Below are positions 1-15,608 of a DNA stretch of 64,000 nucleotides, piece by piece; the stretch's first letter is position 1; each line of letters begins with the position of its first letter. The DNA lies in the IMG/VR virus record IMGVR_UViG_3300032105_000042, positions 15,693 to 79,692 of that record; one strand, written 5' to 3'. The notes below the pieces were generated by a model. The model searched no databases and was not told where the DNA came from. It saw only the letters and a list, made by a program, of their open reading frames with translations. The position numbers and the translations under genes were made by a program. This stretch comes from a virus.

Positions 1-713
1 TCTATATGTCCACACTTGTACTCATCTCTCCATGAGTTACAGCAAAGTGCGACACGACCATCCCAACGTATTACCATCTCTCTGAACGGGCGAGCGCAAC
101 GTCTCTGCAACGGCTCACTCGGCGGCTTCAATCCAGCACCACAATGGGCATTGACCCGTTTGGTACCCAAAGCAATCTCAGCCATCGCTGCCTTCTCAAA
201 GTCCTCCATCAGGATTATCCTCTGGACGTTCGCCTTGACTTTGTGGTAAGGCGATGGCCCACCAGGATAGTCCGTGACTGGAACGCCCTCATAAAGTCGG
301 ATCTGTGCTTCAGCCTTCTTGGAAGCTTCGTAGCAATCCATAGCAAAGATGTTCAACCCATTAACAAACAGTGCATCCAAATTAGCTGAAACACCAGGCT
401 TCCTCAGAAGAGGTATGCCATTCGTCGTAACCATGAGGCAGGCTTTAGGAAGATATTTTCTAAGTATGCCAATTATCTCAGCCGCATCTGGGTTCATCAA
501 TGGTTCACCACGAAGACTGAACTCAAACTTGCTGTTCCATCCACTCTCTGCAACAAGCTTGCCAATCTTTTCAGCAAGACCTGTTGTAAGGTATTCGTAA
601 AGCCCACCAGGCTTTTCCCTGATCCCTTGTATGCCACACATTTGACACCTGAGATTACATCCTTCAGTGAACTCTATCTTGATAGTATTTGGTGGATCTT
701 GTCGGTACTTCAT
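1..713 (-). CDS. Radical SAM enzyme with C-terminal SPASM/twitch-type Cys cluster (3' end runs off the window; absent from the ORF track)
   Basis: Manual translation from ATG 713, which overlaps the FkbM stop as ATGA: MKYRQDPPNTIKIEFTEGCNLRCQMCGIQ... Contains CxxxCxxC, FSLRGEPLMNP, VTTNG and C-terminal RCARPFREMVIRWDGRVALCCN. Confidence 0.9.
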   Translation of the reverse strand, partial: MKYRQDPPNTIKIEFTEGCNLRCQMCGIQGIREKPGGLYEYLTTGLAEKIGKLVAESGWNSKFEFSLRGEPLMNPDAAEIIGILRKYLPKACLMVTTNGIPLLRKPGVSANLDALFVNGLNIFAMDCYEASKKAEAQIRLYEGVPVTDYPGGPSPYHKVKANVQRIILMEDFEKAAMAEIALGTKRVNAHCGAGLKPPSEPLQRRCARPFREMVIRWDGRVALCCNSWRDEYKCGHI

Positions 714-1459
714 GATCTCCGCCTGACGAAAACAAAGTCTTGATGCCACATAGCTGATTTATACGGCAGGGATTTATGCCATCTACCACCTCTCTTGAAG
801 TAAGTATCAAATTCAGAATGGAGGATCTCTAGCAATCCTTCCGTAGCTGCCTTTGACTTCAAGGGCGAACTTTTCATACGCTCCTCTTTATTCAGAAGAA
901 ATCTACCACTATAATGTATCTCACCAAATAGGAACTTTACATACTTTGGCAATGGTGTCCGAAAAAATGACCATTCAGCACCCTGACAGTCCAATTTGAT
1001 TACGTTGGGCCTATAAGTCCTCAATACATCTGAGAAATAAAATGCCTTAACGCACCCAAGAATTACTGCCCTACCATCCCTACGACGTACAACACTACAC
1101 TGTGTCATATGCTTTGCCACTTTACTGATAGTCAAAGGAACCTTTTCCTCTCTCCAACCTATGAGAGCCCCTTCGAGACAGATCGCTTCTGGAGCATTCT
1201 TCTTAAGGATACGGAAATTACCCACCTCTGGCTCAATAGCTATGACTATCCTAGCACCAGCATCCAAAGCAAGTCTGGAGAAAAATCCCCGATGTGCCCC
1301 AACATCAAGAACAACACTACCCTTCAGACTGAGACCGAAATCCTCCAACATCCGGAAATATCCACGAACCTCCGCAAGTATCTCAATATCATATTCATCC
1401 CCAATCCAAACACCCTCGTGCTTTCTCATCATAGACCTAGCCCTCCATATAGATGCCAC
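710..1459 (-). CDS. FkbM-family SAM-dependent methyltransferase
   Basis: VLDVGAHRGFFS motif I, IAIEPEVGNF motif II, VIKLDCQGAEW motif typical of FkbM. Confidence 0.85.
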   Translation of the reverse strand: MASIWRARSMMRKHEGVWIGDEYDIEILAEVRGYFRMLEDFGLSLKGSVVLDVGAHRGFFSRLALDAGARIVIAIEPEVGNFRILKKNAPEAICLEGALIGWREEKVPLTISKVAKHMTQCSVVRRRDGRAVILGCVKAFYFSDVLRTYRPNVIKLDCQGAEWSFFRTPLPKYVKFLFGEIHYSGRFLLNKEERMKSSPLKSKAATEGLLEILHSEFDTYFKRGGRWHKSLPYKSAMWHQDFVFVRRRS

Positions 1460-1471
1460 AGATACGAGGGC

Positions 1472-2347
1472 TCATAACAACACTTTCACATCAGGAGTAT
1501 ACCGTTCCAACCTACCTTCACCAAGACGAACACGCTCGTATTTATCCCACTCGCATAAACTGTGTTCACAATCTCTCATCTCTAGAGACGGAACGTTTGT
1601 TGTTCTAAGATACCTTGGTGAAACCTCCAACAGACAACGCATCTCAGTTAATGCTTTAGTCTTAGAGAGCGAGGGTCTGTCGCGCCTGAGCCTACCTTTT
1701 ATTGGTCGGCCGAACACACGATGTAGTCCCCTAACCGCCCCAGGGCCAACGTTGGCCCACGTCATAATATCGGGAGCATCAGACAAGTATCTTGTGTGGC
1801 GAAGATCCGTCACGACTTCATAGGAAAGGAATGGCCCAAAGCCCACACGCCCATTGAACATTTGGAACGCTTCCTCCAAAGTCTTAGCAAGATGAAGTGG
1901 CGGTGGATCCTTGTGGAGAGGATCCAGAATCTTGAACACCGTCTGCTCAGACTTCTCACCACCCAACGTACCAGTCAGCATATAGGCACTCGTATAGACC
2001 TTCAAGCCTCGGGCACGTCGCTGCTTCATAATATTTAGTACACGTCTTGGCTCCCATCGTTCAGGAAAACCTATCTCCGCTAATGTCTCTGGCCAATTAA
2101 TCTGACGAGCCATAGTCATAGCAAACCAAAGATTCTTATGCTCCGAATAAGGCCCCCTCCAGTTCTCTCTGATCCATATTGTGACCTTGTCTAATTCCCT
2201 AAAAATGTTACAAAAACGGTATCGTTGGAGTATCGGGTCTTCCGTCCAAGGCGGAGGTTCACCTGCCTGACGGCGAAGATAGATCCTATGACGTTCACTT
2301 ACAAACGCAAAGAACATCTGCAATCCAGGAATTTTTTCCCTTGTCAT
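1472..2347 (-). CDS. Amino acid:DNA transferase / alpha-glutamyl-putrescinyl thymine pyrophosphorylase clade 1 (5hmdU hypermodification)
   Basis: ERHRIYLRRQAGEPPPWTEDPILQRYRFCNIFRELDKVTIWI N-terminal signature, GFGPFLSYEVVTDL, GPGAVRGL, RDCEHSLCEWDKY. Confidence 0.88.
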   Translation of the reverse strand: MTREKIPGLQMFFAFVSERHRIYLRRQAGEPPPWTEDPILQRYRFCNIFRELDKVTIWIRENWRGPYSEHKNLWFAMTMARQINWPETLAEIGFPERWEPRRVLNIMKQRRARGLKVYTSAYMLTGTLGGEKSEQTVFKILDPLHKDPPPLHLAKTLEEAFQMFNGRVGFGPFLSYEVVTDLRHTRYLSDAPDIMTWANVGPGAVRGLHRVFGRPIKGRLRRDRPSLSKTKALTEMRCLLEVSPRYLRTTNVPSLEMRDCEHSLCEWDKYERVRLGEGRLERYTPDVKVLL

Positions 2348-2802
2348 TTACAACACTTCCCGTGTTTATAATTTGGATTGTTGCGACCACGCCTGGTTTC
2401 TGACATTTTGTCCTTAGCAGCTTTTGTATGTTGACGCCCTGTGAAACCAATAGACCGGCACCCGAACATTGGATTTCGTTCCCCAGAGATATCCGGCCAA
2501 CGCCCTTTTTTGATGGAATCTTTTATGTTATCACTTTGGGTCCCAACGAATAAATGTGATGGCCGAACACACCGTCGGTTATCACATTTATGAAGGACAA
2601 GGAGCCCCACTGGAATGTTTCCAAAATGAAGCTCGTACGAATACCTATGTGCATACATTCGACCACGACTGCCTCCAACACTAAAATTTCCATAGCCCTT
2701 GTAGCAAACACCTGTCCATTCCCAGCACGTGTTGCGACCAGGCTCTTTATTGACTTTGGGCCAGAAACGAATTTCTGGGGGCGTTGGTGGACGACCAATC
2801 AT
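2344..2802 (-). CDS. Free-standing HNH homing endonuclease with NUMOD3-like C-terminus
   Basis: CWEWTG..AHRYSYELHFG..VLHKCDNRRCVRPSHLFVGTQSDN; C-terminal GRQHTKAAKDKMSETRRG. Start reassigned to ATG 2802, 1 nt after the upstream stub's stop. Confidence 0.9.
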   Translation of the reverse strand: MIGRPPTPPEIRFWPKVNKEPGRNTCWEWTGVCYKGYGNFSVGGSRGRMYAHRYSYELHFGNIPVGLLVLHKCDNRRCVRPSHLFVGTQSDNIKDSIKKGRWPDISGERNPMFGCRSIGFTGRQHTKAAKDKMSETRRGRNNPNYKHGKCCK

Positions 2803-2803
2803 C

Positions 2804-2950
2804 TCAATACAATATCCCCGAAGATAGCCAAGACTCACCAGCAGAACGGCGCAGATAGATGGAGTGTCGCTCGACGACGAACTCAAAGAAACGTCGCAGA
2901 GATTTTCTGGGGGGAGAAGCAGTAATATCTGCATTCCTTTTATTCATCAT
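2804..2950 (-). pseudogene. 48-aa stranded N-terminal stub of a second aGPT-Pplase1 allele
   Basis: MMNKRNADITASPPRKSLRRFFEFVVERHSIYLRRSAGESWLSSGILY*; FFEFVVERHSIYLRRSAGE matches FFAFVSERHRIYLRRQAGE of 1472..2347 at 15/19 residues. Confidence 0.85.
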
Positions 2951-2998: not shown

Positions 2999-3871
2999 TC
3001 ACGAGACCTTGATATTCCCCCTCGCCAGGTCGGTCTTCATGTTCCCCATTGTACCCCCCTTCTTGAGGAACTGACCGACCGTCATGCCGGTCTTGTAGAG
3101 GGCGAACCGTCTGTGGACTTCGGTACCCGGCCGACGTGGGTTTGACTTGGCGATGACGGTGATCTTCGCGTCGCGAGAAACTGCACCTTGCTTGCCAGCC
3201 GACTTCGTGGTTGCCGACTTGGTGCCCTTCTTGTCCTTGATCTTCTCGATCTTCTTGTCCTTGATCTTCTTGTCCTTGGTCTTCTTGCCCTTGCGCTTGG
3301 TCTTGTCCTTTTTCACAGTCTTATCCTTTCGCCGTTTCGATTTCCGTTTTGGAGCAGGAGGCTCATCCTCCTCCTCCTCTTCCTCGCCGTCCTCTTCTTC
3401 TTCTTCTTCTTCCTCTTCTTCACCCTCCTCCTCGCCGTCCTCTTCTTCTTCTTCCTCTTCTTCGTCCTCGTCCTCGCCCTCATCCTCGCCGTCCTCTTCC
3501 TCTTCCTCTTCCTCACCGTCCTCTTCCTCTTCCTCTCCTTCCTCTTCTTCTTCTTCTTCTTCTTCTTCTTCCTCTTCCTCTTCCTCTTCCTCGCCGTCCT
3601 GCTCTTCCTCGCCGTCCTCTTCTTCTTCCTCTTCCTCTTCCTCGGGCACGTCAACATCGGGGAACGATAGTGGCACGCCCCCGGCCTTGACATTATCTAC
3701 GGCTTCCTGGCACCAGCCTTGAGCCTCCGCTGAGAGCTGGAAAAACTTCTCGTCGGCGATAGCATCCATGGCACGAACGAGGCGCGTCCGGAAAGTTCCA
3801 TCGTCTTCCTTACGCTTCCGCTCAAGACCGGTAGCTTCCATGAGTTCTAATTCGATCGACATACTCCTCAC
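2999..3871 (-). CDS. Protein with a ~100-residue Glu/Asp tract, a Lys-rich segment and a small C-terminal domain (possible DNA mimic / nucleoprotein chaperone)
   Basis: Long EEEEEDGEEEE tract followed by KKDK repeats and a folded-looking NPRRPGTEVHRRFALYKTGMTVGQF end. Confidence 0.7.
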   Translation of the reverse strand: MRSMSIELELMEATGLERKRKEDDGTFRTRLVRAMDAIADEKFFQLSAEAQGWCQEAVDNVKAGGVPLSFPDVDVPEEEEEEEEEDGEEEQDGEEEEEEEEEEEEEEEEEEGEEEEEDGEEEEEEEDGEDEGEDEDEEEEEEEEDGEEEGEEEEEEEEEEDGEEEEEEDEPPAPKRKSKRRKDKTVKKDKTKRKGKKTKDKKIKDKKIEKIKDKKGTKSATTKSAGKQGAVSRDAKITVIAKSNPRRPGTEVHRRFALYKTGMTVGQFLKKGGTMGNMKTDLARGNIKVS

Positions 3872-7563: not shown

Positions 7564-7662
7564 GAACATCAGCTGTATGACTGGTTGAGAGAGCTGAGGT
7601 AAGGATTGATATCAATATTGATATATGTAGTATTTGGAATTGGAAAATTCATGTACTATAAA

Positions 7663-7762
7663 CTTCCTACTCTCCTACTCTCCTACTCTCCCCCCTCCCC
7701 CTCCTCTTACGAGGGGGGGAGAGGAGGGGGAGAGAGTAGGAGTAAGAGTAGGAGAGGGAGTT
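7663..7762. repeat. Imperfect inverted repeat with a polypyrimidine left arm and polypurine right arm (CCTACTCT iterations)
   Basis: cctactctcctactctcctactctccccctccccctcctc-ttac-gagggggggagaggagggggagagagtaggagtaagagtagga, preceded by an AT-rich stretch. Confidence 0.75.
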
Positions 7763-7785
7763 GTAAAGGAGAAAGGGAGGGAGTT

Positions 7786-8274
7786 GTGTTGGAGAGAGTG
7801 ATATCGGGGGGTCAGACTGGCGCTGATCAGGGAGGTCTGGAAGGAGCCAAGGAGGCCGGTATTGAGACTGGTGGGATGGCACCCAGAGGCTACAGAACGA
7901 GCTCCGGACCCCAGCCAGACCTGAGAAGGAGGTTCGGCCTGGAGGAGTCCCAGTCTGCCTACTACTCTCCGAGGACTAGGACCAACGTGCGGAATAGCAC
8001 TGGGACGGTAATCTTTGGAGACCCACACTCACCAGGGAGCAGGTTGACATCCCGGCTGTGCAGGGAATACCAGAAGCCCTGTCTCAAGATACCCTACCCC
8101 AGCTCGACGAGCGACAGCCCCAGAGACGCGCTGGCTGTGTGGTGCCTGGTAAACTGCGTCGAGACCCTGAACGTAGCGGGGAACAGAGAGGAGAGGAACC
8201 CAGGGATCCAGGCGTTCGTGAGAGGAGTGATACTAGGTACAGTAGAGCGGCAGAGGGAGATATGCATCCTGTAG
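7786..8274 (+). CDS. SLOG-superfamily protein (MoCo-carrier-like / YpsA-related)
   Basis: VISGGQTGADQGGL, GGMAPRGY, RTRTNVRNSTGT, LNVAGNRE; GTG 7786. Confidence 0.85.
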   Translation: MLERVISGGQTGADQGGLEGAKEAGIETGGMAPRGYRTSSGPQPDLRRRFGLEESQSAYYSPRTRTNVRNSTGTVIFGDPHSPGSRLTSRLCREYQKPCLKIPYPSSTSDSPRDALAVWCLVNCVETLNVAGNREERNPGIQAFVRGVILGTVERQREICIL

Positions 8275-9234: not shown

Positions 9235-10698
9235 GTGCCTGGTCAGGACAACCTGTCCACGTTCCTGCAGGAGAACTTGCTCACGCTCCTATGCTACGAC
9301 GATAAGCATGCGACGATTATCCGAGGCACGGTTAGTGTCGATCTCTTCGAGGGACCCTACCGCAAGATTGCGCAGGAGATCTACCATCACCTAGACACCG
9401 CAGGGAAAGTGCCAGGTGATCACATAGTAGATCTCTTCGAGGACACGCTCACCAAAGGTGACCACAAAGCACGTCAATACCGCCAGTTATTCGAGGCTAT
9501 TCGAGAGAGCCGAAAAGAAGTAGATCCTGACTTTGTCATACAGCGTCTGGCAACATTTGTACGAATACAGGAAATCAAGGCAGCAACGCTAGAGGTTGCC
9601 GAACTTGTTCACACCGGCAGGTTGGATGACGAGGCCATCGAGAGAGCCGAGAGCATCTTCACGAAAGCGATCCACAAACGGCTGGAACTCTTTAACGCTG
9701 GTGTCCTCCTCGGAGACTGGGAACACACACTGAGACTACTCGAGCGAGGTGAGGAGGAAGTCTTCCCAACAGGTATCCTGGAACTGGACCGTCTGGGTCT
9801 CGGCCCAGCCAGGAAGGGTCTCCACCTCTTCATTGGTCTACCAAAGCGTGGTAAGACCTGGTGGCTTGTCAACCTTGGTAAGAGTGCCTACATAGAAGGG
9901 CGACGCGTCGTCCACATCAGCTTGGAGATGAGCGAGAGACAGATCGTCCGACGCTACTACCAGGCAATGTTTGCCCTTGCCAAGCGTCGGCCAGCACGGG
10001 ATCAGGATGCGTTCTATCGTACTGATTTCCGTATAGATGAAGACGGCAGACTCGAGGGTCTGGTACAGGAGCGCTTCGAACCCCGTCACGCGCTGGACGA
10101 CGAGGAGGCACTGACATATCTCCATCGGAGGCTTAAGCACGTCGGTTCGAGACTGAACCGTATCATCATCAAGGATTTCCCGACTGCGCAGTTGACCATC
10201 TCTGGGTTGTCGGCCTATCTGAACAGTCTCGAGGTTCGCTACCACTTCAAGCCGGACCTCCTAATAATCGACTACCCTCAGCTCATGAGTTTCGACGCGC
10301 GCTACCAGCGGCTGGAGCTCGGCAAGATCACCCAGCAGCTCCGAGGGATCGCCGTGGAGAGGAACCTTGCCGTTGCCATAGTCAGTCAGTCTCACCGCAA
10401 GGCGCTGAAGGCTCGGGAGGTGGACCTTGGAAACATCGCCGAGGACTTCAGTCAGGTCGCCACGGCCGACGTCATTCTTACCTACAGTCAGACCAAGGAG
10501 GAGCGCAGGCTGGGCCTAGCTCGCATCTACGTAGCAGGAGGACGAGACGAGGCCGACCAGTTCTCGATACTGATCTCGCAGCACTACGCGACCGGGCAGT
10601 TCTGTCGGAAGTCCGTTAGAATGCAGAAGCAGTACTGGGACATTCTTGACCACTTTGAAGAAGAGGAAGACGAGGATGAGGAAGATGAAGAGGAATAG
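9235..10698 (+). CDS. DnaB-like replicative helicase with acidic tail
   Basis: Walker A GLPKRGKT, HISLEMSE, LIIDYPQL, AIVSQSHR, IAEDFSQVATADV. Confidence 0.9.
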   Translation: MPGQDNLSTFLQENLLTLLCYDDKHATIIRGTVSVDLFEGPYRKIAQEIYHHLDTAGKVPGDHIVDLFEDTLTKGDHKARQYRQLFEAIRESRKEVDPDFVIQRLATFVRIQEIKAATLEVAELVHTGRLDDEAIERAESIFTKAIHKRLELFNAGVLLGDWEHTLRLLERGEEEVFPTGILELDRLGLGPARKGLHLFIGLPKRGKTWWLVNLGKSAYIEGRRVVHISLEMSERQIVRRYYQAMFALAKRRPARDQDAFYRTDFRIDEDGRLEGLVQERFEPRHALDDEEALTYLHRRLKHVGSRLNRIIIKDFPTAQLTISGLSAYLNSLEVRYHFKPDLLIIDYPQLMSFDARYQRLELGKITQQLRGIAVERNLAVAIVSQSHRKALKAREVDLGNIAEDFSQVATADVILTYSQTKEERRLGLARIYVAGGRDEADQFSILISQHYATGQFCRKSVRMQKQYWDILDHFEEEEDEDEEDEEE

Positions 10699-11275
10699 GG
10701 AAAGGAAGAGGCTGGGGCCGACCGAGATAGGCAGGGAGACCAGCCTCGCGAGAGTCATAGTCATCGGCGAGTCACCGGGGCCGAAGGGTCAGGCTGCCTT
10801 CCCACTCTTTCCCCACCCTGCTAGGAGCGCGGGGTACCGTCTCGCCCAGATGACGGGTCTGGTTAGAGCGGAGTACCTGCGACACTTCCGCAGGCTTAAC
10901 CTCGTCCCCAGCCACCAAGGACCCAACTGGCCTGCCACCATCGCGCGAGACGCTGCGGACAACCTGGCAGGTGGTGGTATGCTCAGTGGGTACCGCGTAC
11001 TCCTGCTGGGGGCAAAGGTCTGGCGCGCCTTCGGAGGAGCCAACAAGGACTTCTCCTACTGTCGGTGGTACAAGAGATACGGGCGGCTCTGGTCTCCAGG
11101 CTACTACATAGCAGTCATTCCTCACCCGAGCGGGCGCAATCTTCTCTACAATAAGAGTAGCGTGAGGCAGCATGTCGAGTCCTTCCTCCGTGCTCTGGCC
11201 AAGGGCAGAGCGACGCAGAGGTATGCCTTTATCTACAGCCGCGCGCCTGCCGGTCGTACCCGTCGCCGTCTCTAG
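10646..11275 (+). CDS. Uracil-DNA glycosylase superfamily protein
   Basis: IVIGESPG motif A, VLLLGAKVWRAF, IPHPSGRN motif B; true start probably downstream of 10646. Confidence 0.75.
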   Translation: MTTLKKRKTRMRKMKRNRERKRLGPTEIGRETSLARVIVIGESPGPKGQAAFPLFPHPARSAGYRLAQMTGLVRAEYLRHFRRLNLVPSHQGPNWPATIARDAADNLAGGGMLSGYRVLLLGAKVWRAFGGANKDFSYCRWYKRYGRLWSPGYYIAVIPHPSGRNLLYNKSSVRQHVESFLRALAKGRATQRYAFIYSRAPAGRTRRRL

Positions 11276-12547: not shown

Positions 12548-12614
12548 GTCGAAACCGGGCCAACCAGCCCGGTCTGCCGAGGGATGAGCTCCCGACACTG
12601 ACGATGATAGCTCA
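12548..12614 (+). ncRNA. Type II hammerhead ribozyme HH3 (cleavage after C12574)
   Basis: GTC-GAAA-CCGGGC/GCCCGG-TC-stem I with bulge-CTGACGA-T-GAT; pseudoknot TGAGCT/AGCTCA. Confidence 0.8.
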
Positions 12615-12630
12615 AGTATAGGAGGAGATT

Positions 12631-12912
12631 ATGTTTGATTGGCAAAGGTTTTGTTTCTACAAAGCTATTCCCGATGGGTTTCTTACCCAGCATAAGGGAA
12701 GAACCTTCAACACCTCTTGGGATGGAGCCTGGGTTCTCGATAGCTGGAACGATTTGAACGTCCCCTACTTCACCCGTCCCGGGCGAAAGAAGCGGTTCGT
12801 CGTTCCACATCTCGAACGGCGGCTGATCTCACTAGCAAAGAAAACCGTCGTAACGGTAAAGTCAATACGAAGGAAACGCCTCCCCAAGCATCTGAGGCGA
12901 CGGCACCTCTAG
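12631..12912 (+). CDS. Small early hypothetical protein with Arg-rich tail RRKRLPKHLRRRHL
   Basis: Conserved RBS; stop overlaps HH4. Confidence 0.8.
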   Translation: MFDWQRFCFYKAIPDGFLTQHKGRTFNTSWDGAWVLDSWNDLNVPYFTRPGRKKRFVVPHLERRLISLAKKTVVTVKSIRRKRLPKHLRRRHL

Positions 12913-12977
12913 TCGAAACCGGGCTGGGTAGCCCGGTCGGTTTGATCTGACCTACCAACCCTGACGATGACAGGTCA
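12912..12977 (+). ncRNA. Type II hammerhead ribozyme HH4 (cleavage after C12938)
   Basis: GTC-GAAA-CCGGGCT/AGCCCGG-TC-GGTT..AACC-CTGACGA-T-GAC; pseudoknot TGACCT/AGGTCA. Confidence 0.82.
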
Positions 12978-12998
12978 AGACAACTATAGGAGGAGATC

Positions 12999-13268
12999 AT
13001 GTGTTACATTATCCAGACAGACATGAGTACAGGTCAATCCTCCCAGCCCCTGTTCTGGACTGGGACCGAGGTCGTCGGCATCTGCCGCTCTGGCGAGGCG
13101 AGAGTCTATAGCAGCCGCTCTCAGGCAGCGTCAGCCCTTGCAGCTATCCCCTCGAACGTCGTCCGGTTCTACGATCTACACATACGACCCGAGGGTGAGC
13201 GCTCCCGGTTGCCACAGTTGAGAGGTATCCGTGGGATGAAGGGTAATCCGGGATACGATCTCGGTTAA
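12999..13268 (+). CDS. Small early hypothetical protein
   Basis: Conserved RBS TATAGGAGGAGATCATG. Confidence 0.75.
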   Translation: MCYIIQTDMSTGQSSQPLFWTGTEVVGICRSGEARVYSSRSQAASALAAIPSNVVRFYDLHIRPEGERSRLPQLRGIRGMKGNPGYDLG

Positions 13269-14999: not shown

Positions 15000-15608
15000 A
15001 TGTATTATGTTACTATGGACAGCGAGGGCGACCGCATCCTGGAGGATGCAGAGATCGTGGAGTACAGGACGCACTCCAAGGCCAAGGACCATCTCCTGGA
15101 CAGCTTCTCCGAGGTAGAGGAAGGCCAGGAAATCGAGATCGTGTCAGGTCACTTCCAGAACTGCTGGAAGAGGGTCGAGCTCAACGGGATAGCAAGAGTG
15201 GACATCGATCCCTTCTGCTGGGACGAGGTCTGCATTCAGCATCCGGATAAACATCCGGGAGACAGTACATACTGGATAACGCCCGGACCGGAGGTCCTGG
15301 TGGCCAAGCTCGTTAATGTAGAAACAACGTCGTGGGAGGGTATCGTGAACCTTAACATCACCTCAACCACGGTCGGCCCGTTCGAGGACGGCTCCTTTAA
15401 GGCAGGCGTGCGCGTAGAGACGAGCGAGCAGACCTCGATCGTTTACGCCCGGCAGGGCCCGTTCCCGACCAGTGACGAGGCTCACCACGTAGCGCAGGCG
15501 TTCCTGCAGTACGTGTGCGAGCTCGTGGACAAAGCGCTCACAGAAGTAAGGTACGACAAGCTGATCGTGAGCTTGCTGCTGGACGACCCCCCGTCCGGCG
15601 GTGGCTAA
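15000..15608 (+). CDS. Early hypothetical protein (possibly two fused modules)
   Basis: Conserved RBS GATAGGAGGAGATTATG. Confidence 0.7.
   Translation: MYYVTMDSEGDRILEDAEIVEYRTHSKAKDHLLDSFSEVEEGQEIEIVSGHFQNCWKRVELNGIARVDIDPFCWDEVCIQHPDKHPGDSTYWITPGPEVLVAKLVNVETTSWEGIVNLNITSTTVGPFEDGSFKAGVRVETSEQTSIVYARQGPFPTSDEAHHVAQAFLQYVCELVDKALTEVRYDKLIVSLLLDDPPSGGG

What the first reader, a model, noticed from the sequence alone, without database searches (positions are those of the whole stretch)
1..2347. Thymidine-hypermodification cassette: aGPT-Pplase1 + FkbM methyltransferase + SPASM/twitch radical SAM
Seen: three tightly linked genes (13-nt gap, then an ATGA overlap); the radical SAM gene is missing from the ORF track. 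Known: aGPT-Pplase enzymes transfer amines or amino acids onto phosphorylated 5hmdU in DNA (phiW14 putrescinyl-T, SP10 glutamyl-T), and tailoring enzymes diversify the base (PLP and radical SAM enzymes in M6; FAD and acetyltransferase in PaMx11). Inference: a clade-1 transferase with an FkbM-type methyltransferase and a two-cluster radical SAM may make a methylated or rearranged base I cannot match to a described one. dCTP deaminase (19483) fits dUMP supply. The dUMP hydroxymethylase and 5hmdU kinase are not in this window.
Basis: partly seen in the sequence, partly recalled or inferred. Interest (0 to 1): 0.75.

Follow-up and report, generated by a model that had tools for sequence, protein, structure and literature searches.

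The report
Sugar-type thymine hypermodification operon, kinase-less
The three genes are the front end of a longer phage operon that most likely replaces thymine with 5-hydroxymethyluracil and hangs a tailored sugar on it, using a radical enzyme family not yet described for DNA; the product has never been measured.

Summary
The three genes are real and tightly linked. The window edge hid the rest of the operon. On the 79.8-kb viral contig the order is PF18723 (old name aGPT-Pplase1), FkbM methyltransferase, radical SAM, TAGT glycosyltransferase, thymidylate-synthase-like enzyme (uracil-type Asn, 44-46% identical to M6/YuA-type phage enzymes), HD hydrolase, a small conserved protein, clamp, UDG-PolA.

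No 5-hmdU DNA kinase and no amino-acid:DNA transferase (PF18724) was found in the contig (CheckV completeness estimate 79%).

The radical SAM enzyme is unrelated to M6 gp53. It is a BtrN-like "twitch" enzyme with one auxiliary cluster. Its family tracks glycosyltransferases and 5hmU sources:
- 54 of 80 relatives lie near a TS-like gene, 11 near TET/JBP, never both.
- 65 of 80 lie near a glycosyltransferase.
- Natural TAGT-radical SAM fusions occur in both contexts.

The likely product is therefore a glycosylated 5hmdU whose sugar is oxidised or epimerised and O-methylated, not an amino-acid-derived base. PF18723 keeps the Cys of the proven transferases, but its function is unknown.

The scan reported the same enzyme set before on other DNA (e1-5346959, e1-3260634, e1-3295172). 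The TS + clade-1 + glycosyltransferase core is in print (PMC9599517). I found no paper describing the radical SAM/FkbM tailoring.

The parts
1472..2347 (-). PF18723 protein (HMUDK_hel, formerly aGPT-Pplase clade 1), 291 aa. It has an HhH-glycosylase-like fold. The L-C-E motif (C265, E266) is conserved, with a Glu at -4 (E261).
   Evidence: Pfam 178 bits. AF2 model pLDDT 90. The best structural match is PaMx11 gp46 PUGT, Z 10.5, followed by HhH glycosylases. C265/E266 are invariant in A1, and the L-C-E motif was present in all 135 homologues checked.
710..1459 (-). FkbM-family SAM methyltransferase, 249 aa from the GTG. The probable start is the ATG at 1432.
   Evidence: TIGR01444 55 bits, above the cut-off. 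PF05050. The RBS is visible. The gene is an accessory: it occurs in 4 of 80 PF18723 loci and 6 of 80 radical SAM loci.
1..713 (-). N-terminal about 237 codons of a BtrN-like twitch radical SAM enzyme. The gene continues 969 nt in all, to contig position 15437, outside the window.
   Evidence: CX3CX2C at C19/C23/C26. Auxiliary-cluster cysteines C206, C224, C269 and C272 align to BtrN. Profile against PDB: BtrN 1e-16. AF2 pLDDT 91.5. Foldseek top hit BtrN 4m7t, E 1e-12, TM 0.79 normalised by BtrN's length.
19483..19965 (+). dCTP deaminase / dUTPase-family enzyme, the likely dUMP supply.
   Evidence: PF22769 6e-19 and PF00692 3e-10. phrog_1663 5e-43.
2344..2934 (-). HNH homing-type endonuclease inserted directly upstream, overlapping the PF18723 start as ATGA. 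It is a neighbour, not part of the pathway.
   Evidence: HNH_3 2e-13 and NUMOD3. Junction shown.

Best explanation
The three genes are the first three of a co-directional operon for a kinase-less, sugar-type thymidine hypermodification.

Inferred pathway:
1. A dCTP-deaminase-like enzyme and an HD hydrolase steer the pool towards dUMP and away from dTTP.
2. The TS-like enzyme makes 5-hydroxymethyl-dUMP.
3. The UDG-fused PolA builds 5hmdU into DNA.
4. The TAGT glycosyltransferase puts a sugar on the 5-hydroxymethyl group.
5. The BtrN-like twitch radical SAM enzyme abstracts a hydrogen from a carbinol carbon of that sugar (or of its nucleotide-sugar donor) and oxidises or epimerises it.
6. The FkbM enzyme O-methylates the sugar.

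PF18723 is a catalytically competent-looking relative of the amino-acid:DNA transferases. It accompanies the TS-like route in almost every relative, but its reaction is unknown.

Shown here: gene identities, folds, conserved residues, gene order, co-occurrence and fusions. Inferred: every chemical step and the product.
For: Operon content on the contig:
- The gene order is PF18723, FkbM, radical SAM, TAGT (PF20691 54 bits; phrog_842 1e-41), TS-like, HD, p148, clamp, UDG-PolA.

The TS-like enzyme is a uracil type:
- It has Asn where thymidylate synthases have Asn. The CMP hydroxymethylase MilA has Asp there. The catalytic Cys is kept.
- It is 44-46% identical over its full length to the enzymes of M6/YuA-like Pseudomonas phages and PhiJL001, and 33-36% to ViI- and SPO1-type phages.
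- It is syntenic with PaMx11 gp50-gp51-gp52.

Co-occurrence:
- In the 80 nearest PF18723 loci, TAGT is present in 78, TS-like in 79, a gp49-like kinase in 0 and AADT in 0.
- In 80 loci carrying the radical SAM family, TS-like is present in 54 and TET/JBP in 11, never both. A recognised glycosyltransferase is present in 65.

Fusions and blocks:
- Two distinct TAGT::radical SAM fusion proteins exist.
- One sits between PF18723 and the TS-like gene and was read on 5 contigs. The other sits next to TET/JBP.
- L147 is rSAM-TAGT-TAGT-rSAM. L016 has a TAGT-FkbM-rSAM block.
- A sibling cluster (L015) adds a GT61 glycosyltransferase and an acyl carrier protein.

The radical SAM enzyme:
- It is closest to BtrN and SpeY, twitch dehydrogenases of sugar-like substrates, and to DesII.
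Against: - No chemistry has been measured. The phage is uncultured.
- CheckV estimates the contig at 79% complete, so a kinase or second transferase could lie in the missing part. Six of the 80 radical SAM loci do carry a gp49-like kinase.
- In most TET/JBP + ParB loci with this radical SAM family, my queries found no glycosyltransferase. The enzyme might therefore act on 5hmU itself.
- The FkbM assignment to sugar O-methylation rests on family habit and on travelling with glycosyltransferases, not on a specific homologue.
- The role of PF18723 is unexplained.
Confidence: 0.6

Rival explanations
1. The radical SAM enzyme acts on the base, not the sugar. It abstracts a hydrogen from the 5-hydroxymethyl carbon of 5hmU in DNA. 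The result could be oxidation to 5-formyl-U, in the way BtrN and anSME oxidise carbinols, or a new bond. The glycosyltransferase and methyltransferase would act on that product or in parallel.
For: - The family sits next to two alternative 5hmU sources: TS-like in 54 loci and TET/JBP in 11.
- Most actinophage-type TET/JBP + ParB loci (L013, L121, L133 and others) show no recognisable glycosyltransferase.
- BtrN-type chemistry suits a primary or a secondary carbinol (the anSME analogy is from general knowledge).
Against: - TAGT::radical SAM fusions occur in both TS and TET contexts.
- 65 of 80 loci carry a glycosyltransferase.
- L147 pairs two copies of each.
- L095, L096 and L124 have a GT4-like gene directly before the radical SAM gene in TET loci.
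- Unrecognised glycosyltransferases may explain the remaining loci.
Confidence: 0.2
2. One reading: the clade-1 protein transfers an amine or amino acid onto phosphorylated 5hmdU, and the methyltransferase and radical SAM enzyme then methylate or rearrange that group, as in the M6 and PaMx11 logic.
For: - PF18723 has the fold of the proven transferase PaMx11 gp46 (Z 10.5).
- It keeps the catalytic Cys in an E-x3-C-x-W context.
- Homologues sit in M6, PaMx11, SP10 and SH-Ab 15599 clusters.
Against: - No kinase and no PF18724 in the contig.
- 0 of the 80 nearest relatives have either.
- Glycine transfer in M6 needed only gp54 and gp51, not gp55.
- The radical SAM enzyme has no homologue in M6 or in any of 50,697 deposited phage records.
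- The radical SAM family occurs without PF18723 in all 11 TET loci. PF18723 occurs without the radical SAM gene in 78 of 80 loci.
Confidence: 0.1
3. The operon modifies cytosine (a glycosylated 5hmC as in T-even or TET phages), or the glycosyltransferase, methyltransferase and radical SAM genes are a moron acting on host glycans or a small molecule rather than on DNA.
For: - TAGT was defined in 5mC/TET contexts. PHROG labels it beta-glucosyl-HMC glucosyltransferase.
- The best PDB hit of the TS-like enzyme is a CMP hydroxymethylase.
Against: - The discriminating residue is Asn, not Asp.
- The nearest full-length relatives belong to 5hmdU phages.
- PF18723 and UDG-PolA are markers of T-modified phages.
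- The three genes lie between PF18723 and the TS-like gene in one operon, and the layout recurs.
Confidence: 0.06

Closest known systems
Kinase-less TS + aG/PT-PPlase1 + 5'-deoxynucleotidase + glucosyltransferase cluster of HTVC023P-type pelagiphages (PMC9599517); also seen here in PhiJL001, Brevibacterium phage LuckyBarnes and Ralstonia phiRSL1
   Same: The core genes are the same: PF18723, TAGT, a TS-like enzyme, an HD hydrolase and the small p148-like protein, placed near PolA.
   Different: Those clusters lack the radical SAM and FkbM genes, which occur in 2 and 4 of the 80 nearest loci. Their product is also unmeasured.
M6/YuA, PaMx11, ViI, PhiW-14 and SH-Ab 15599 thymidine hypermodification (PMC5889632, PMC8989533, PMC11472151, PMC13458397)
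   Same: A dUMP-hydroxymethylase-type enzyme, an HD hydrolase and a PF18723 homologue occur in the same order as PaMx11 gp50-gp52. 5hmdU is the precursor, and modification is post-replicative.
   Different: The P-loop 5-HMUDK and the clade 2 transferase are absent here. No PLP, FAD or acetyltransferase tailoring genes were seen. A glycosyltransferase sits in their place. The radical SAM enzyme belongs to a different family from M6 gp53.
BtrN (butirosin 2-deoxy-scyllo-inosamine dehydrogenase) and related twitch radical SAM enzymes (SpeY; HygY epimerase)
   Same: A CX3CX2C core plus a twitch domain with four aligned cysteines. BtrN is the best sequence-profile hit and the best fold hit.
   Different: About 16% identity. 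An extra invariant Cys (C225) sits next to a cluster ligand. The enzyme is phage-encoded, sits in DNA-modification operons and is sometimes fused to a DNA glycosyltransferase. The substrate is unknown.
Phage TET/JBP (5mYOX) + glycosyltransferase pathways and trypanosome base J (PMC8256090; bioRxiv 10.1101/2023.12.21.572611; PMC13229309)
   Same: A 5-hydroxymethylpyrimidine in DNA is glycosylated by a TAGT-type enzyme. The radical SAM family studied here also occurs next to TET/JBP + ParB.
   Different: Here the hydroxymethyl group is made before replication by a TS-like enzyme. 'Radical SAM' does not occur in the text of two of these papers; PMC8256090 was not read.

Membership tests
PF18723 (HMUDK_hel, formerly aGPT-Pplase clade 1) | Full-length match to the family model above the curated cut-off | tested here: met
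   178 bits against a cut-off of 25, positions 4-277 of 281. 2192 homologues, all listed ones PF18723.
PF18723 (HMUDK_hel, formerly aGPT-Pplase clade 1) | HhH DNA-glycosylase-like helical fold related to the AADT enzymes | tested here: met
   PaMx11 gp46 Z 10.5, rmsd 4.4, 215 aligned. HhH glycosylases follow at Z 6-9. Foldseek probability 0.99.
PF18723 (HMUDK_hel, formerly aGPT-Pplase clade 1) | Adjacent or fused P-loop 5-hmdU DNA kinase, the origin of the Pfam name | tested here: not met
   No PF18748 hit. The only weak AAA_33 hit lies in the gene that Pfam reads as clamp-loader-like (DNA_pol3_delta2). No small Walker-A ORF. 0 of the 80 nearest loci have a gp49-like kinase. The contig is estimated 79% complete.
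Amino-acid:DNA transferase (AADT/ADDT, PF18724, formerly aGPT-Pplase clade 2) | Match to PF18724 | tested here: not met
   hmmscan at E up to 10 gives only PF18723. No PF18724 anywhere in the contig. hhalign against gp46 was insignificant.
Amino-acid:DNA transferase (AADT/ADDT, PF18724, formerly aGPT-Pplase clade 2) | Catalytic Cys (PUGT C247) with a nearby metal-binding or essential Glu | tested here: met
   gp46 reads E-T-I-L-C-K-W and this protein reads E-H-S-L-C-E-W. Cys plus the following Glu are present in all 135 homologues. The Glu at -4 is E or Q. The correspondence is by motif and position, not by residue-level superposition.
BtrN-type twitch radical SAM enzymes | CX3CX2C radical SAM cluster motif | tested here: met
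   C19, C23 and C26 are invariant in 37 sequences.
BtrN-type twitch radical SAM enzymes | One auxiliary [4Fe-4S] cluster with four Cys (CX12GX4C ... CX2C), not the seven-Cys SPASM motif | tested here: met
   C206, C224, C269 and C272 align with the four BtrN twitch cysteines. No CX5CX3C follows.
BtrN-type twitch radical SAM enzymes | Dehydrogenation of a carbinol in a sugar-like substrate | not testable with these tools
   Fold and profile similarity only. Epimerase chemistry is equally possible for this group. The HygY paper is cited in PMC10991966 but is not held.
M6 gp53-type radical SAM glycinyl-thymine isomerase | Sequence similarity to gp53 (spore-photoproduct-lyase-like) | tested here: not met
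   tblastn found no match at E 1e-3 in 50,697 phage records, which include M6 and its relatives. The nearest structures are BtrN, SpeY and CteB, not SPL.
dUMP hydroxymethylase (TS superfamily) | TS fold with a catalytic Cys and an Asn (uracil), not Asp (cytosine), at the base-discriminating position | tested here: met
   Alignments to a thymidylate synthase (4h0r) and to MilA. PF00303 3e-20. phrog_5131 369 bits.
dUMP hydroxymethylase (TS superfamily) | Hydration rather than reduction of the methylene intermediate | not testable with these tools
   Inferred from 44-46% identity and synteny with enzymes of phages whose DNA derives from 5hmdU.
TAGT (PF20691) DNA glycosyltransferase | Match above the cut-off and placement beside a 5-hydroxymethylpyrimidine source | tested here: met
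   54 bits against a cut-off of 27.5. phrog_842 1e-41. Directly upstream of the TS-like gene.
FkbM methyltransferase family | Match to TIGR01444/PF05050 above the cut-offs | tested here: met
   55 bits against 37.7 and 24.6 against 22.7. The substrate was not determined.

The most novel reading that the evidence does not exclude
A family of BtrN-like twitch radical SAM enzymes works hand in hand with DNA glycosyltransferases, sometimes as one polypeptide, on 5-hydroxymethyluracil in phage DNA. The family comprises 360 clusters at 50% identity with E up to 1e-30. If so, it would be the first radical enzyme shown to tailor a sugar attached to DNA, or the hmU base itself. Here it would yield, together with an FkbM methyltransferase, a hypermodified thymidine unlike any described.
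Probability: 0.45. Interest if true: 0.78.

Novelty: new variant of a known kind. Interest (0 to 1): 0.62.

Why it matters
All characterised thymidine hypermodifications go through a DNA kinase and an amino-acid or amine transferase. Known DNA glycosylations use glycosyltransferases, sometimes with nucleotide-sugar enzymes.

This operon points to a third pattern. 5hmU is made before replication, glycosylated without a kinase step, and then tailored by radical and methyl-transfer chemistry.

The radical SAM family is common in uncultured phages. It is tied to two independent routes to 5hmU and is sometimes fused to the glycosyltransferase, so it is a clear and cheap target for reconstitution. 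A new DNA-linked sugar chemistry would bear on restriction and CRISPR evasion, on enzymatic DNA labelling, and on the unknown function of the clade-1 (PF18723) proteins that accompany almost every TS-based pathway.

Tried and rejected
- phmmer of the PF18723 protein and of TAGT against PDB sequences found nothing useful.
- hhalign of the PF18723 alignment against PaMx11 gp46 was insignificant. The Cys correspondence therefore rests on motif, position and fold only.
- Pfam at E up to 10 found no second family on the PF18723 protein.
- Own-contig searches for PF18748, PF18724 and PF13671 were negative, apart from one weak AAA_33 hit in the clamp-loader-like gene. A Walker-A scan found only the RecA-like, clamp-loader-like and DnaB-like genes and two large ORFs that I did not annotate.
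- tblastn of the radical SAM enzyme against 50,697 phage records gave no match.
- A single-sequence locus scan with the radical SAM enzyme found one locus only. The alignment-based scan worked.
- The PDB sequence search for the FkbM protein matched only SAM-binding stretches of TlyA and PRMTs.
- The unknown 314-, 265-, 245-, 211- and 145-aa neighbours in related loci have no Pfam family.
- Iyer et al. 2013 and the HygY paper are not held. I could not check whether the radical SAM link was already noted there.
- No model coordinates were available to measure where C225 lies.
- The idea that PF18723 reduces activated 5hmU back to thymine was considered. It would fit its link to the TS route and its absence from TET loci. 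Nothing here tests it.
Full report
**1. Observation**

The window is bases 15693-79692 of a 79,803-bp IMG/VR viral contig that CheckV rates 79% complete. Three co-directional minus-strand genes lie at 1-2347.

- Gene 1 (1472-2347, 291 aa) matches Pfam PF18723 almost end to end, at 178 bits.
  - Pfam now names this family 'HMUDK_hel'.
  - GenBank homologues are annotated 'aGPT-Pplase1' or 'alpha-glutamyl/putrescinyl thymine pyrophosphorylase'. PMC9599517 calls it aG/PT-PPlase1.
  - The neighbouring model PF18724, which hits PaMx11 gp46 (called aGPT-Pplase2 in PMC8989533), is now 'ADDT'.
- Gene 2 (710-1459) is an FkbM-family methyltransferase.
- Gene 3 runs off the window. On the contig the ORF is 334 aa, or 322 aa from the likely ATG. 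It carries Radical_SAM plus a full SPASM-model hit.

The junctions are as described, with small corrections. There are 12 nt between the gene 1 stop and the GTG of gene 2, and a better RBS-preceded ATG lies at 1432. Genes 2 and 3 overlap as ATGA at 713-710. The upstream HNH endonuclease gene overlaps gene 1 in the same way.

**2. What the window edge hid**

I fetched the 15.7 kb upstream of the window. The operon continues with:

- a TAGT glycosyltransferase (PF20691, 54 bits; phrog_842, 1e-41);
- a 348-aa thymidylate-synthase-like enzyme;
- a YfbR-like HD hydrolase;
- a 148-aa protein;
- a sliding-clamp-like protein;
- a PolA with an N-terminal UDG domain;
- then clamp-loader-like, SSB-like, RecA-like and resolvase-like genes.

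The TS-like enzyme keeps the catalytic Cys. It has Asn at the position where thymidylate synthases have Asn and the CMP hydroxymethylase MilA has Asp. Its closest full-length relatives, at 44-46% identity, are the enzymes of M6/YuA-like Pseudomonas phages and PhiJL001. ViI-type (33%) and SPO1-type (36%) enzymes follow.

The order PF18723, TS-like, HD mirrors PaMx11 gp50-gp51-gp52. A dCTP-deaminase/dUTPase-family gene lies at 19483-19965. UDG-fused PolA enzymes have been linked to T-modified phages (PMC13697223).

Together these make 5hmdU, not 5hmdC, the likely precursor.

**3. What is missing**

The contig has no PF18748 (5-HMUDK) and no PF18724 (AADT). The only weak AAA_33 hit lies in the clamp-loader-like gene, and there is no small Walker-A ORF.

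This is not peculiar to this contig. Among the 80 nearest PF18723 loci in IMG/VR (plus or minus 10 kb), 78 carry TAGT, 79 carry the TS-like gene and most carry the p148-like gene. None carries a gp49-like kinase or a gp46-like transferase.

That core has been noted in print for HTVC023P-type pelagiphages (PMC9599517). It also occurs in PhiJL001, LuckyBarnes and phiRSL1.

**4. The PF18723 protein**

The AF2 model (pLDDT 90) is an HhH-glycosylase-like helical fold. Its best match is the solved 5-PmdU glycinyltransferase PaMx11 gp46 (Z 10.5). Queuine-salvage and DNA glycosylases follow.

It shares with gp46 the motif around the catalytic Cys247. gp46 reads E-T-I-L-C-K-W and this protein reads E261-H-S-L-C265-E-W (PMC11472151; PMC13458397). 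Cys plus the following Glu occur in all 135 homologues I extracted. The Glu at -4 is E or Q.

So it looks catalytically competent for C6-thiolate chemistry. No function is published, however:

- In M6, glycine transfer needed only gp54 and gp51. gp55, the gene next to the kinase and the likely M6 homologue, was dispensable.
- PF18723 follows the TS route. It is in 51 of the 80 radical SAM loci and in none of the 11 TET loci.

**5. The radical SAM enzyme**

It has no relative in 50,697 deposited phage records, so it is not the M6 gp53 type.

A 37-sequence alignment shows invariant C19/C23/C26 and C206, C224, C225, C269 and C272. The family profile hits BtrN far above anything else in the PDB (1e-16), and all four BtrN twitch-cluster cysteines align.

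The AF2 model (pLDDT 91.5) matches BtrN best: E 1e-12, TM 0.79 when normalised by BtrN's length. CteB, the twitch dehydrogenase SpeY, EpeE and DesII follow. It is a twitch enzyme with one auxiliary cluster, of the kind that oxidises or epimerises carbinol carbons of sugar-like substrates.

The exhaustive profile search finds 360 clusters at 50% identity with E up to 1e-30.

**6. Whom the radical SAM enzyme works with**

Related loci carry it in many arrangements:

- PF18723-rSAM-TAGT-TS;
- PF18723-rSAM-FkbM-TAGT-TS-HD;
- PF18723-FkbM-ACP-rSAM-GT61-TAGT-TS;
- rSAM-PF18723-GT1;
- a separate TAGT-FkbM-rSAM block;
- rSAM-TAGT-TAGT-rSAM.

Across 80 IMG/VR loci:

| Feature within 8 kb | Loci (of 80) |
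|---|---|
| TS-like gene | 54 |
| TET/JBP gene (10 with ParB) | 11 |
| Both TS-like and TET/JBP | 0 |
| A recognised glycosyltransferase | 65 |
| FkbM | 6 |
| gp49-like kinase | 6 |

The TET/JBP + ParB type includes a Nocardiopsis prophage. ParB-associated 5mYOX enzymes were recently shown to be T-dioxygenases (PMC13229309).

Most telling, two distinct clusters are natural TAGT::radical SAM fusions:

- One lies between PF18723 and the TS-like gene and was read on five contigs.
- The other lies directly after a TET/JBP gene.

The enzyme is thus coupled to the glycosyltransferase and to 5hmU, whichever way 5hmU is made. It is not coupled to PF18723.

FkbM occurs with TAGT but without the radical SAM gene in two loci (L054, L078). 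The two tailoring steps are therefore independent.

**7. Reading**

The best-supported model is a kinase-less, sugar-type thymidine hypermodification. 5hmdU is built into DNA, glycosylated by TAGT, and its sugar is oxidised or epimerised by the twitch enzyme and O-methylated by FkbM.

The main rival is that the radical enzyme attacks the hydroxymethyl group of the base. Most TET/ParB loci, where I saw no glycosyltransferase, keep this rival alive.

A cytosine-based or non-DNA reading is unlikely. All chemical steps are inferred.

**8. Novelty**

The core module and the association of glycosyltransferases with TS-like or 5mYOX genes are published (PMC9599517; bioRxiv 10.1101/2023.12.21.572611). 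'Radical SAM' does not occur in the text of the glycosyltransferase preprint or of the T-dioxygenase paper. Full-text searches found no paper on a radical SAM enzyme in a glycosyl-type DNA pathway. Iyer et al. 2013 could not be read.

Earlier notes of this scan report the same enzyme set on other DNA. My counts and the fusion evidence agree with them and extend them.

I class this as a new variant of a known kind.

Noticed in passing
contig 12590-13036 (L002, minus strand; outside the window): A 148-aa protein after the HD gene travels with the PF18723-TAGT-TS module in most of the 80 nearest loci. It has no Pfam hit. The atlas search points weakly to DUF1599 ('nucleotide modification associated domain 1').
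   Followed up: partly
L013, L095, L096, L121, L124, L179: The same radical SAM family sits in operons with TET/JBP and ParB, sometimes after a GT4-like gene. One case is a Nocardiopsis prophage next to terminase genes. This looks like a second, post-replicative route feeding the same enzyme.
   Followed up: partly
L177:3324-5063 and L179:2091-3857: Natural single-polypeptide fusions of TAGT glycosyltransferase and the twitch radical SAM enzyme (579 and 588 aa).
   Followed up: yes
L015:11801-14160: The nearest IMG/VR sibling cluster adds a phosphopantetheine-binding carrier protein and a GT61 glycosyltransferase between FkbM, the radical SAM gene and TAGT. This hints at an acylated or disaccharide decoration.
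   Followed up: partly
window 2344-2934: An HNH/NUMOD3 homing-type endonuclease is wedged directly upstream of the PF18723 gene with an ATGA overlap. More HNH genes and an intein-bearing ATPase lie upstream on the contig (L002 8237-8818, 3817-4464, 2-2146).
   Followed up: partly
window 2999-3871: A 290-aa ORF has a very long Glu/Asp run followed by a Lys-rich tail and no family hit. A second acidic-tailed SSB-like protein lies at L002 5460-6518.
   Followed up: no
window 7606-8274 and 10646-11275: A circularly permuted YpsA SLOG-family protein and a weak stand-alone UDG-like ORF lie on the opposite strand near the DnaB-like helicase.
   Followed up: no
P0254 (radical SAM homologue from the representative search): One member of the radical SAM family is interrupted by an intein with an HNH domain.
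   Followed up: no
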